Assembly: GCF_036365525.1 (NCBI RefSeq)
Contig: NC_090401.1
Location: forward strand, 24,181,839-24,245,838
Reading direction: 5' to 3'
Source: Heterodontus francisci
Taxonomy: Eukaryota
Length of the DNA: 64,000 nt
Numbering within the stretch: the first letter of the stretch is position 1; each line of letters starts with the position of its first letter. Below are positions 7,630 to 60,022 of the stretch, piece after piece. The notes below the pieces were generated by a model that had not been told where the DNA came from, did no database searches, and saw only the letters and a program-made list of their open reading frames with translations. Position numbers and translations under genes: made by a program.

Positions 7630-7727
7630 ACAAAAGCAAAATACTATGGATGCTGCAAATTTGAAATAAAAACAAAAAATGCTGGAAATACTCAGTAGGT
7701 CAGGAAACATCTGTGGAAAGTGAAACA
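7630..7727 (-). repeat. Penelope pseudo-LTR tail fragment
   Basis: AAAAGCAAAATACT..GGATGCTG..GAAATAAAAACA..TGCTGGAAATACTCAG..CATCTGTGGA is the reverse complement of 23230-23340. Confidence 0.65.
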
Positions 7728-7876
7728 ATAATAATCTGTACTTTGAATGGCAGCAGACTGGATGATGTGGAAGAAGAGAGGCATTTGGAAGTTTAGGTTC
7801 ATAAACAGCAATGAAATATTGGGTTTTATGGCAAGAGGTATGGACTATAAAAGTTCAGATGTAATGGTCATTATAT

Positions 7877-21420: not shown

Positions 21421-21604
21421 TGGTTTGAGTGGATGGAGGAAGTAAAGGGAAATTTTAAAAAGCTTTAAAATATGGAATGTAAGCAATGAAGCTTGCTTGT
21501 TGCTTCAAGACATGTAGAAACCAAAAATGAAAATCCACAATAATAAAACAGTAAGTGCTGGAAATACACAGCAGGTCTGGCAACATCTGTGGAGAGAGAA
21601 ACAG

Positions 21605-21641
21605 AGTTAATGTTTCAGGTCTGTGACCTTTCATCAGAACT
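21605..21641 (-). ncRNA. Minimal type I hammerhead ribozyme motif in the Penelope pLTR
   Basis: Minus strand AGTT-CTGATGA-A-AGGTC/ACA/GACCT-GAAA-CA-TT-AACT: stem I AGTT:AACT, conserved core, stem II; the palindromic stem III AACGTT is mutated to AACATT here and intact at 23230 and 59690. Confidence 0.7.
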
Positions 21642-22527
21642 GACATAGATTAGAAATGTAATACGTTTTGAGCAAGTGAAATGCGGGTGGCGGGTGTGTG
21701 TAGAAGAACAAAAGTGAAGGTCTGTGATAGAGTGGAGAGCAAGAGAGATTAAATGACAAAGATGTCATGGAACAAAAGGCAAAGGGAGTAATAATAGCCG
21801 CAGTAAAAGACAAAGCATTTGTACAGCGAGAGTGTTAATGGCAGAATAATGAACAGTTCTATCCAAAAGCAAAAATCTGATAAAAACAGTATAAGACTGG
21901 TACATGGTAAAAAAAAACAATCAAAATGACATTCATGTTCTGAAGTTGTTGAACTCAATATTGAGTCCAGAGGGCTGTAAAGTGCCTAATCAAAAGATAA
22001 GGTGCTATTCCTTGAGCTTACGTTGAGCTTCACTGGAACACTGCAGCAGGCCAAAGATAGAAATGTGGGCATAAGAGCAGGGTGATGAATTAAAATGGCT
22101 CAGGGTCATGCTTGCAGACTGAGCGGAGGTGTTCCACAAAGTGGCCACCCAATCTGCATTTGGTCTCCCCAGTGTAGAGGCAATCATATTGTGAGCAGCA
22201 AATACAGTATACTAAATTGAAAGAAGTACAAGTAAATCGTAGCTTCACTTGGAAGGAGTGTTTGGGGCCTTGGATGGTGAGAAGAGAAGAAATAAAAGGG
22301 TAGGTGTTACACCTCTTGCGGTTGCATATGAAGGTGCCATGGGAAGGGGATGAGGTGTCGGGGATGATAGAGGAATGGACCAAGGTGTCGTGGAGAAAAC
22401 AGTCCCTTTGGAATGCCGACAGGGGAGGGGAGGGGAAGACGTGTTTGGTGGTGGATGTGGAGGCTGGTGGGGTGGAAAGGGGAACCCTGCCATGGATCTG
22501 GGAGGGAGAGGAAGGGGTGAGGGCATA

Positions 22528-23108
22528 ACCATAAAACCATAGAAAAATTACAGCACAGGAGGAGGCCATTCAGCCCATCATGTCCATGCCAGCCAAAAAA
22601 ACTAGCTGCCCAATCTAATTCCACCTTCCAGTACCTGGTCCGTAGTCTTGCAGGTTACAGCACTTCAGATGCATGTCCAATCACCTTAAATCTGTGTCCC
22701 CTGGTAATTGACCTCCCCTCTAGGGTCCTTCCTGTCTACTCTGTCTAGGCCCCTCATAATTTTATACACCTCAATTAAGTCACCCCTCAGTCTCCTCTGT
22801 CCTAAGGAAAACAGCCCTAGCATATCCAATCTTTCTTAATAGTTGCAACTTTCAAGCCCTGGAAACATTCTTGTAAATCTCCTCTGTACTCTCTCAAGAG
22901 CAACTATGTCCTTCCTGTAATGTGGTGACCAGAACTGTACACAATACTCCAGCTGTGGCCTAACCAGCGTTTTATACAATTCCAGCATTACATCCCTGCT
23001 TTTGTATTCAATACTTCGGCCATTAAAGGAAAGCATTCCATATGCCTTCTTCACCACTTTATATACCTGTCTTGCTACCTTTAGGGACCTGTGGACATAC
23101 ATTCCAAG
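22528..23108 (-). mobile_element. CR1 3' fragment with internal deletion, inside the Penelope element
   Basis: ORF 22836-23150 VHRSLKVA..RPQLEYCVQFWSPHY..RFTRM; tail repeat (CTATGGTT-like) at 22528-22545. Confidence 0.85.
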
Positions 23109-23407
23109 AAGTGTGGAAAATGGGCTGAACATGGTCGATGGTCCTGTCAACCACAGTGGGAGGGAATCCTCAGTTGAGGAAAATGGAACACATATCAGAA
23201 GTGCTGTTGTGAAAGGTCACAGGCCTGAAACGTTAACTCTGTTTCTCTCTTCACAGATGCTGCCGGACCTGCTGTGTACTTCCAGCACTTTCTGTTTTTA
23301 TTTCAGATTTCCAGCATCTGTAGTATTTTGCTTTTATTTTAATGAAAATCCACAGCCATGGCTTGAATATTGAGAACCAATTAAGGTATTAATTAAGGTA
23401 TTAATTA

Positions 23408-57975: not shown

Positions 57976-58049
57976 TGAAATAAAAACTGAAAATATTGGA
58001 AATACTTAGCAGGTCTGGCAGCCTCTGTGGAGAGAGAAACAGAGTTAAT
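57976..58049 (-). repeat. Penelope pLTR tail fragment abutting the Harbinger left end
   Basis: GGAAATACTTAGCAGGTCTGGCAGCCTCTGTGGAGAGAGAAACAGAGTTAAT. Confidence 0.75.
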
Positions 58050-58509: not shown

Positions 58510-60022
58510 ATGGGGCTGTGTATGCCTGTCCTTACAGCAAGCTGGTAATACCTGAAGTAATTGCATCTCTGGGACACAGCAGCAATGGGAATTGTGCATT
58601 CTAGAGGTGGCTCAAGGAGGGACAAGAGGACAACTGGTCGGGGAACACGCAACCTGCTGGCCTAGTGCAGCCTCGTAAAGGGGGAGGGGGGAGAAGGTGG
58701 CAGAGCGGCCTAGGTGGAACCAGCTGTGAGGAAACGAGCCTACCCAGCAGGCAGGGTCTACCACCTACGTTTGAGCTTCCTGCAACTGTCAGAACGCCAG
58801 TGCTGAAGAAGACTGCATCTGTCACGGGAGACTGTCACATCTCTGTGTGAGATGCTGGCAGTGGAGGTCGTTTCCAATTGCGTGGGTGGCCATCCAGTGC
58901 CAATCGCACTGATGCTAACAGTAGCACTAAATTTCTATGCATCAGGCCCGTTCCAGGCTTCATTGGCAGACATGTGCGGCGTCTCCCAAGCATCAACGCA
59001 TCACTGCATTAAGGTTGTGACTGATGCCATTTTCAGGCATGCCAACCATTTCATCAACTTCAAGATGGACACTGCCAGTCAGGCCGAGAGAGCCAGAGGA
59101 TTCAGCACCATTGCTGCGTTCCCAATGGTCCAGGCTGTTACAGACTGCACTCATGTGGCCATTAGAGCACCTGTAGGTCAGTCAGGGACCTTCATTAATC
59201 GCAAGGGGTTCCACTCAATGAACGTTCAGCTGGTCTGTGACCATTGTAAGGGAATCATGCAGGTGTGTACACGTTATCCTGGAAGCAGTCACGATGCTTT
59301 CATTCTGTGGAACTCCCAGGTGCCAGCACTATTCAGCCCTTCTGAACACCTGCAAGGATGGATACTTGGTGACAGGGGTTATCTGCTGAAGACATGGCTG
59401 ATGACACCGGTGAGGAACCCAAGCAATAATGCAGAGGAACATTACAATGAGAGCCATGTGACCACCAGAGTGACCATAGAACAGACTATAGGTCCTCTCC
59501 AAATGAGATTTAGGTGTCTCGATCAGTCAGGTGGAGCTCTGCAGTACTCACCAGCAAGGGTCTCTAGAATTATTACAACAAAAAGAGCTGGAAATACTAA
59601 GCAGGTCTGGCAGCATCTGTGGAGAGAGAAGCAAAGTTAACATTTCAGGTCAGTGACCTTTCATCAGATGAAAGGTCACAGACCTGAAACGTTAACTTTG
59701 CTTCTCTCTCCACAGATGCTGCCAGACCTGCTAAGTATTTCCAGCTCTATTTTTTTGTTTCAGATTTCCAGCATTTGCAGTATTTTGCTTTTATCTCTAG
59801 ATTTATTGTCGTCTGCTACACCTTATATAACCTGGCGATGGAGAGGGGAGAGGCCTTGGAGGATGATCAAGGTCAGCGCGAGGCTTCCTCAGAGGAGGAT
59901 GGTGATACGGATGAAGAAGAGGGGCCGAGGCACCTGAACGGCAGGGAGAGGAAGCTGAAGGCCAGGTGGAGTTGTGTGCAAGAGAGACCCGGGAGGCTCT
60001 AATACTCAGGTGTTTCTCCTGA
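58510..60022 (+). pseudogene. Harbinger (HARBI1-like) DDE transposase, best-preserved copy
   Basis: ORF 58852-59640 with TDCTHV, NRKGFHS.NVQLVCD, YPGSSHDA, LGDRGY, IEQTIG; in-frame TGA at 58804; interrupted at RVSRII|VVC by a Penelope insertion; acidic C-terminal tail. Confidence 0.9.
59575..59793. mobile_element. Penelope pLTR-only fold-back insertion with hammerhead motifs
   Basis: TSD TCTCTAGAATTATT / TCTCTAGATTTATT (59561-74 / 59794-807); near-perfect ~85-bp arms centred on 59666. Confidence 0.88.

What the first reader, a model, noticed from the sequence alone, without database searches (positions are those of the whole stretch)
59575..59793. Penelope pLTR hairpin whose axis lies inside the hammerhead catalytic core
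Seen: a 219-bp insertion with a 14-bp TSD, made only of two inverted pLTR copies. The centre TCATC-A-GATGA (59666) reads CTGATGA-AAGGTCACTGACCT-GAAATGTT-AACT on the minus strand and CAGATGA-AAGGTCACAGACCT-GAAACGTT-AACT on the plus strand. Known: Penelope-like elements carry minimal type I hammerheads with a palindromic stem III that work as dimers, and often integrate with an inverted pLTR. Inference: the near self-complementary core (TCATCAG/CTGATGA) may have primed a snap-back during reverse transcription, giving a MITE-like, ORF-less product that would form long dsRNA if transcribed.
Basis: partly seen in the sequence, partly recalled or inferred. Interest (0 to 1): 0.7.

Follow-up and report, generated by a model that had tools for sequence, protein, structure and literature searches.

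The report
Two-ended Penelope stub, not ribozyme snap-back
This 219-base hairpin is one of thousands of mirror-image stubs left by a known kind of jumping gene; its centre falls in the ribozyme core likely because both halves were copied up to the start of the element's RNA, which lies a few bases before the core, and were then joined there.

Summary
Observation confirmed: 219-bp insertion, 14-bp TSD (13/14), 89-bp arms, a 35-nt tail on one arm, inside a decayed Harbinger ORF. It is the shortest form of the known Penelope-like (PLE) layout: pLTR, inverted pLTR, one-sided tail, TSD. The parent is a 3.3-kb RT + GIY-YIG element. G000 holds at least 8,138 such hairpins. Breakpoints do cluster, but at an edge 3-5 nt upstream of core C3, also in copies with no inverted arm, often with an extra G (cap-like). 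They do not cluster at the predicted cut site. The exact in-core axis is 1 of 50 sampled hairpins. Snap-back fits this copy badly: it needs a 1-nt loop, the faithful arm lacks the tail, and the axis base follows either arm (219:272). Best reading: two cDNAs primed at both target nicks run off the RNA 5' end and join by microhomology; the core's TC-N-GA supplies only that microhomology. Both hammerheads here lack helix I. RNA start, cleavage and small RNAs are untested. The scan noted the same thing before, in this and at least 26 genomes.

The parts
59561..59574 (+). Left target-site duplication, TCTCTAGAATTATT
59575..59668 (-). Inverted, tail-less pLTR arm; element positions about +92 down to -1 (core C3 = 0); template-faithful through the axis
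59635..59667 (-). Hammerhead remnant, minus strand: CTGATGA, extra A, stem II AGGTC-ACT-GACCT, GAA, ATGT (decayed ACGT), T, AACT; 5' strand of helix I missing
59664..59668 (.). Junction: TC-A-GA quasi-palindrome centred on 59666; 2-nt microhomology (GA) between the arms
59665..59697 (+). Hammerhead remnant, plus strand: core broken (CAGATGA), stem II AGGTC-ACA-GACCT, GAA-ACGT-T, AACT; 5' strand of helix I missing
59667..59793 (+). Direct, tail-bearing pLTR arm; element positions +2 to +128
59759..59793 (+). One-sided ~35-nt PLE tail (inferred to lie between two RT start sites)
   Evidence: PMC11167929 for the analogy
59794..59807 (+). Right target-site duplication, TCTCTAGATTTATT
58912..59574 (+). 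Host: decayed Harbinger/HARBI1-type DDE transposase ORF, interrupted near its end; frame resumes at 59808
21540..23341 (.). Comparison insertion of the same family: long inverted tail-less arm (reaching the endonuclease region, with nested LINE-like DNA) joined to a short tail arm that also starts in the hammerhead core; TSD AATGAAAATCCACA

Best explanation
This is a Penelope-like retrotransposon insertion cut down to its two end pieces, likely made when both nicked strands of the target each primed a short cDNA that ran off the RNA's 5' end and the two cDNA ends were joined head to head by microhomology. SHOWN: TSD, inverted tail-less arm, tail arm, a parent element with RT + GIY-YIG in 3.3-kb tandems, thousands of hairpins with varied junctions, a breakpoint edge 3-5 nt upstream of core C3 that also appears without inversion, and both arms of an insertion sharing subfamily variants. 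INFERRED: (1) the endonuclease cuts both strands ~14 nt apart; (2) one nick primes near +130 (tail arm), the other near +96 (tail-less arm); (3) the template is uncut RNA whose capped 5' end is the first bases of hammerhead helix I (initiator-like TCAGTT), so priming on the 5' copy of the repeat gives 100-135-nt run-off cDNAs; (4) the two same-sense cDNA ends can pair only through quasi-palindromes near that end, here TCAGA against TCAGA with one central mismatch, repaired either way. The hammerhead core is a bystander that supplies 2 bp of microhomology. The product has no ORF and no complete ribozyme, and is likely a dead end.
For: Edge: in 99 tail-anchored loci (100 listed, one duplicate dropped), 30 of 64 arms still running at +5 end in -6..+5, hazard 0.039/nt against 0.003-0.005 on either side; 30 of 51 ends in -30..+29 fall in these 12 nt, p 1e-9. 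About 22 of the 30 have no adjacent inverted arm detected, and several abut their TSD (L063, L076, L082, L103, L106, L112). In the window's own subfamily 10 of 14 truncated arms among 30 fetched end at -3..-5. Cap-like G: among the first 100 rows of arms that stop matching after -4, 30 were long variants; of the other 70, 42 have sense G next, 26 A, 2 T (counted by eye; p 2e-8 against 0.28). The G lies outside the TSD in L282 and L325. Untemplated G marks capped LINE-1/SVA RNA (PMC4859970 passages). Two cDNAs: axis base follows the tail-less arm in 219 and the tail arm in 272 sites; the inverted arm reaches further 5' in 22 and the tail arm in 9 of 36 inversions, 5 equal; window copy 21540-23341 has a 1.5-kb inverted arm and a 125-nt tail arm. 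Two start sites: inverted arms begin at +89..+105 in 47 of 60. PAc cleaves and extends both strands from two internal RT starts, using uncut RNA (PMC11167929). De novo origin: 54 of 60 have their own 12-18-nt TSD, and the same axis recurs on several subfamily backgrounds.
Against: No RNA 5'-end data: the start site and cap are inferred from DNA alone. The edge is 2-3 nt wide and shifts between subfamilies (-4/-3 in the young, -5..-3 in the old). An extra C on the cDNA is also frequent after -3 (48 of 91), where many cases look like template re-annealing, so it may be general run-off tailing rather than a cap. In 8 of the G cases examined the TSD itself ends in G or GA, so the base is ambiguous. 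The sequence at the edge (TTCTAAT...CAG) also looks like a 3' splice site, and the D. virilis intron ends at helix I (PMC4209133). Arms are concordant (14 of 411 diagnostic sites differ against 27.6% for shuffled pairs), which fits self-copying as well as two primings on one RNA. The axis ratio deviates slightly from 50:50 toward the tail arm (p 0.019), and sites with two tails count in both classes. The commonest junction (GTCAGT/ACTGAC, 5 of 50) has a loop large enough for fold-back. Samples are the first rows of contig C1 and are biased to young copies by exact patterns; one locus was mis-merged (L040) and one inversion missed (L042).
Confidence: 0.65

Rival explanations
1. First reader's model (and the self-priming idea of PMC3846280): one strand folds back on the near-palindromic core and copies itself, giving the inverted arm.
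For: The axis sits on a quasi-palindrome; arms share subfamily variants; 491 oriented matches to this axis class exist; self-priming, on an antisense template, is proposed in print.
Against: A 1-nt loop is required here. The faithful arm lacks the tail. The axis base follows either arm (219:272). Inverted arms outrun the tail arm in 22 of 36. The same edge occurs without inversion. The exact axis is 1 of 50.
Confidence: 0.08
2. Hybrid: both target strands prime cDNAs, one cDNA folds back on itself where a real loop is possible, and the new sense strand anneals along the other cDNA. This would give the same sequence as intermolecular joining for junctions with loops of 4 nt or more, but not for this copy.
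For: The GTCAGT/ACTGAC junction is the commonest class (5 of 50) and occurs in both orientations; that pairing forms in the fold of an intact young copy.
Against: It cannot make the 1-nt-loop class (491 matches), so intermolecular pairing is needed anyway.
Confidence: 0.12
3. The edge is not a transcription start but an RNA end made by processing: the 3' splice site at -3/-2, ribozyme cleavage, or an RT stall at the hammerhead fold.
For: A branch-point-like TTCTAAT and CAG precede helix I; the D. virilis intron ends at helix I; earlier scan notes report single copies starting at the cut site.
Against: No recurring exon sequence sits upstream of the edge, and TSDs abut it. Cleavage predicts ends at +29: about 14-19 of the first 100 rows of 2,262 are true ends there, against about 16 of 100 of 3,242 at +28 (some are Harbinger-like insertions), while 70 of 100 of 4,907 end at -4 in the young family alone; all counted by eye. 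A stall would be expected at the 3' side of a helix (inference).
Confidence: 0.1
4. A hairpin master element formed once and spread as a MITE- or SINE-like unit, or hairpins arose later by central deletion of longer inverted insertions.
For: Thousands of similar-sized hairpins; identical copies on C41.
Against: Junctions are highly varied; outer ends vary; the same axis occurs on several subfamily backgrounds; the C41 copies share flanks, so they are segmental duplicates; the edge also occurs in non-inverted copies, which deletion would not explain.
Confidence: 0.05

Closest known systems
EN+ PLE insertion with inverted pLTR, one-sided tail and TSD (Adineta Pen2a_Av, PMC3846280, passages; Fig. 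2 legend of PMC8557442, passages)
   Same: Head-to-head inverted pLTR shorter than the direct one, 30-40-nt tail on one end, TSD, palindrome at the junction.
   Different: No ORF between the repeats; junction inside the hammerhead core; thousands of copies allow breakpoint statistics. The papers' passages propose self-priming or nuclease resolution, not run-off at a mapped RNA start.
PAc (Poseidon of Anolis carolinensis) in vitro reaction (PMC11167929, parts 1-2 of 4 and passages)
   Same: Both target strands cut and extended; two internal RT start sites bracket the tail; ribozyme cleavage not needed for insertion.
   Different: The parent here has a Neptune/Nematis-type C-x4-C-x2-C linker and its ATG lies ~168 nt after C3, not in the core. 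The text read does not treat inverted arms or cDNA-cDNA joining.
Minimal type I hammerheads of metazoan PLEs (PMC4209133, parts 1-2 of 4)
   Same: Intact family copies have a 4-bp helix I, an extra A after A9, a 5-bp stem II and a palindromic ACGU stem III; that paper already notes pairs 100-700 bp apart on opposite strands.
   Different: Here the two motifs overlap at the core and both lose helix I. The most abundant young subfamily has CCGAAGA in place of CUGANGA.
LINE-1 twin priming (PMC4859970, passage; mechanism details recalled)
   Same: The second target nick primes a cDNA that ends up inverted and is joined with small indels; untemplated G at run-off 5' ends.
   Different: In LINE-1 the two cDNAs cover different parts of the RNA (recalled); here they copy the same 90 nt, so a repeated template or re-priming is needed.

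Membership tests
EN+ Penelope-like element insertion | Parent ORF with RT and C-terminal GIY-YIG endonuclease | tested here: met
   924-aa stop-to-stop ORF; RVT_1 E 1.2e-5 and GIY-YIG E 0.0019, both below Pfam's cut-offs; DKG and C-x2-C inside the GIY-YIG core seen in the translation
EN+ Penelope-like element insertion | Tandem or partial-tandem units forming pLTRs that hold the hammerhead | tested here: met
   3,288-3,296-bp head-to-tail units in L208 and L210-L212, with this sequence at each boundary
EN+ Penelope-like element insertion | Inverted 5'-truncated copy, one-sided 30-40-nt tail, TSD | tested here: met
Neptune/Nematis clade | CX2-5CxxC linker between RT and endonuclease | tested here: met
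   C-NRRR-C-NT-C; definition from PMC8557442
Neptune/Nematis clade | RT phylogeny with reference clades | not tested
   No reference PLE set was fetched
Minimal type I hammerhead (intact family copies) | CUGANGA core, extra nucleotide, GAAA, palindromic stem III, helix I of 4-5 bp | tested here: met
   AGTT-CTGATGA-A-stem II-GAA-ACGT-T-AACT in older subfamilies; the young subfamily has CCGAAGA
Minimal type I hammerhead (intact family copies) | Stem II kept by compensatory change; G10.1-C11.1 pair | tested here: inconclusive
   The closing pair runs A-U, G-U, G-C across subfamilies (one covarying pair); the window's subfamily has A-U, not G-C
Minimal type I hammerhead (this copy) | Helix I and an intact core on one strand | tested here: not met
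   Helix I 5' strand is TCAT on both strands; plus core CAGATGA; the hairpin dominates the fold
Minimal type I hammerhead | Self-cleavage as a dimer | not testable with these tools
   Needs an in vitro assay; no excess of arm ends at the predicted cut site
MITE (definition recalled) | Fixed terminal inverted repeats and uniform copies moved as DNA | tested here: not met
   Ends asymmetric and variable, junctions varied, RT-encoding parent
Non-LTR retrozyme (bioRxiv 2026.07.22.740005, part 1 of 5 and passages) | Direct tandem repeats, each with a complete hammerhead | tested here: not met
   Repeats are inverted and both motifs incomplete

The most novel reading that the evidence does not exclude
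In this PLE family the capped RNA begins at the first base of hammerhead helix I, and each insertion is built from two cDNAs, one primed at each target nick and each able to run off that 5' end. Inverted pLTRs and one-sided tails would then be the direct footprint of two-ended priming with cDNA-cDNA microhomology joining, using uncut RNA, and the thousands of hairpins would be a ready-made data set for the PLE insertion mechanism.
Probability: 0.55. Interest if true: 0.6.

Novelty: new member of a known kind. Interest (0 to 1): 0.35.

Why it matters
The single hairpin is ordinary debris in a dead DNA transposon. The family statistics matter: how PLEs make inverted pLTRs and tails is still described as undefined (PMC8557442 passages) and was ascribed to self-priming (PMC3846280 passages). 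The breakpoints give specific predictions for the existing in vitro PLE assay: a capped start at helix I, two primed cDNAs, and no role for ribozyme cleavage in these products. If transcribed, thousands of ~90-bp near-perfect hairpins would be a source of dsRNA; that is untested.

Tried and rejected
Rfam: no hammerhead model hit; the miRNA hits are generic hairpin matches far below their thresholds. RNA evidence: no RNA holder listed; contigs of guessed-RNA runs cover the element but cannot show starts, strand or small RNAs, so they are used neither for nor against. Cut-site origin of arm ends: no excess at +29 over +28. Master-hairpin origin: rejected on junction and end diversity. Exon capture at the splice-like site: none seen. 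Monomer folds of intact motifs do not give the hammerhead as a significant structure (z -0.7 and -0.3), as expected for a minimal motif. Literature searches returned no paper that maps PLE breakpoints to a start at helix I or applies twin priming to PLEs; the library lacks most subscription papers and no supplements were read, so the supplementary figures of PMC11167929 and PMC4209133 may bear on this. Not done: empty-site search in other Harbinger copies, arm phylogeny, host-gene context.

Full report
Numbering: core C3 of the hammerhead = 0; the axis base 59666 is +1; the predicted cut gives a 5' end at +29; the tail ends near +129.

1. Observation. The insertion 59575-59793, its 14-bp TSD (13/14) and the 89-nt arms with a 1-nt centre are as described; the fold has z -21.6. 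It interrupts a decayed Harbinger-type DDE ORF whose frame is restored without it. The right arm is ~35 nt longer (the tail). Neither strand has a complete hammerhead: helix I's 5' strand is gone on both, the plus core is CAGATGA. The arms differ at 4 positions in +2..+85, so the insertion is not brand new. Rfam finds no hammerhead.

2. What it is. The genome G000 (6.0 Gb; earlier notes call it shark-like, which I did not check) holds 18,760 exact matches to the 35-nt tail and 8,138 head-to-head pairs with 70-100 nt between anchors. The 30 loci most like the window copy represent 22 other distinct sites with varied junctions. The parent is a tandem unit of about 3.3 kb with a 924-aa RT + GIY-YIG frame and a C-x4-C-x2-C linker, i.e. 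an EN+ PLE of Neptune/Nematis type by motif (PMC8557442 passages; no tree built). Of 60 loci picked for this axis class, 54 have their own TSD of 12-18 nt, 47 have the inverted arm starting at +89..+105, and one is not a hairpin. A second insertion in the window (21540-23341) has a long inverted arm and a short tail arm that also starts in the core.

3. Where the breakpoints lie. In 99 loci chosen only by the tail, 30 of 64 arms that reach +5 end within -6..+5 (0.039 per nt; 0.003-0.005 in +16..+95 and -30..-7; 0.015 in +6..+15). About 22 of these 30 have no adjacent inverted arm by BLAST, and several abut the TSD directly. In the young CCGAAGA subfamily 12 of 16 truncated arms among 30 fetched end at -4..0; in the window's subfamily 10 of 14 end at -3..-5. 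Arms that stop at -4 are followed by sense G in 42 of 70, A in 26, T in 2 (by eye, 30 long variants set aside; p 2e-8); the G is outside the TSD in L282 and L325 and ambiguous in 8 others. After -3 the same base occurs in 48 of 91, partly by re-annealing. Untemplated G is the accepted mark of capped LINE-1 and SVA RNA (PMC4859970 passages), and TCAGTT resembles an initiator (recalled). Ends at the predicted cut site are not enriched over the neighbouring base (by eye).

4. How the arms were joined. The exact 1-nt axis is 1 of 50 sampled hairpins; the GTCAGT/ACTGAC junction is 5 of 50; in 40 of 50 the further-reaching arm ends at -7..-2 (permissive matching, 5 rows mis-walked at indels). Read from the tail-less arm to the tail arm, the axis base follows the tail-less arm at 219 sites and the tail arm at 272. 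Fold-back of the tail-primed cDNA predicts only the second class, and a tail arm that always reaches further 5'; instead the inverted arm reaches further in 22 of 36 inversions and the tail arm in 9. For this copy fold-back needs a 1-nt loop, and the faithful arm has no tail to copy. Two cDNAs whose ends pair across TCAGA with one central mismatch explain all of this. Against: the two arms agree at diagnostic sites (14 of 411 differ, against 27.6% for shuffled pairs), which requires one template source and is equally what self-copying predicts; and fold-back remains possible for junctions with larger loops.

5. Mechanism. Shown: anatomy, parent, copy numbers, edge, G excess, arm symmetry, arm concordance. 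From the literature: PAc cuts and extends both strands, starts RT at two internal sites that bracket the tail, and uses uncut RNA (PMC11167929). Inferred: a capped RNA start at -5..-3, two run-off cDNAs, microhomology joining. Confidence in the whole chain 0.65; in 'de novo PLE insertion, not a MITE' about 0.95.

6. Known or new. The layout is published (PMC3846280, PMC8557442, passages), as are opposite-strand hammerhead pairs (PMC4209133 parts 1-2) and the self-priming idea. In D. virilis the start lies 46 nt before a 75-nt intron (PMC2377424 passages) that ends at helix I, a different arrangement from the one inferred here. My searches found no paper placing PLE breakpoints at a start on helix I; coverage is partial and no supplements were read. 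The scan has noted these hairpins before in at least 26 genomes and in 79 notes on this genome, several with the same reading; these are unchecked AI notes, seen after I had stated my reading, and are not counted as support.

7. Verdict. Real, ordinary as an object, partly misread as to cause. New member of a known kind; interest 0.35, carried by the testable hint about PLE insertion.

Noticed in passing
L208 (G000:C1:104034500-104044499): The most abundant young subfamily (46,874 matches to a 20-nt anchor pattern) has the core CCGAAGA instead of CUGANGA, also in full-length tandem copies, so it spread with a non-canonical hammerhead core.
   Followed up: partly
rows, e.g. L265, L262, L254: Arms ending at -4/-3 are often followed by repeats of their own last 5-8 nt (TTCGGAAC up to three times), resembling reiterative copying at a template end.
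   Followed up: no
L208, element positions +96..+168: Three acceptor-like sites (TTTCAG near +100, TTTTAG near +136, TTCCAG near +166) lie between the hammerhead and the first ATG; the first two coincide with the two arm start zones. A 5' UTR intron is possible.
   Followed up: no
window 57997-58048 and rows: Several PLE ends are interrupted at the TTAA of GTTAAC by another repeat beginning GGGC/GGCC...ATTTTA, likely a Harbinger-type element targeting TWA (label recalled).
   Followed up: no
window 22525-23110: Two LINE-like 3' fragments (CR1/L2-like by recall) on the minus strand are nested inside the long PLE insertion at 21540-23341.
   Followed up: no
L026-L030 (C41) and L087/L088: Hairpin or stub copies multiplied with their flanks by segmental or tandem duplication.
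   Followed up: partly
window 7632-7728: An older, 79%-identical PLE end with tail, on the minus strand, truncated before the hammerhead.
   Followed up: no
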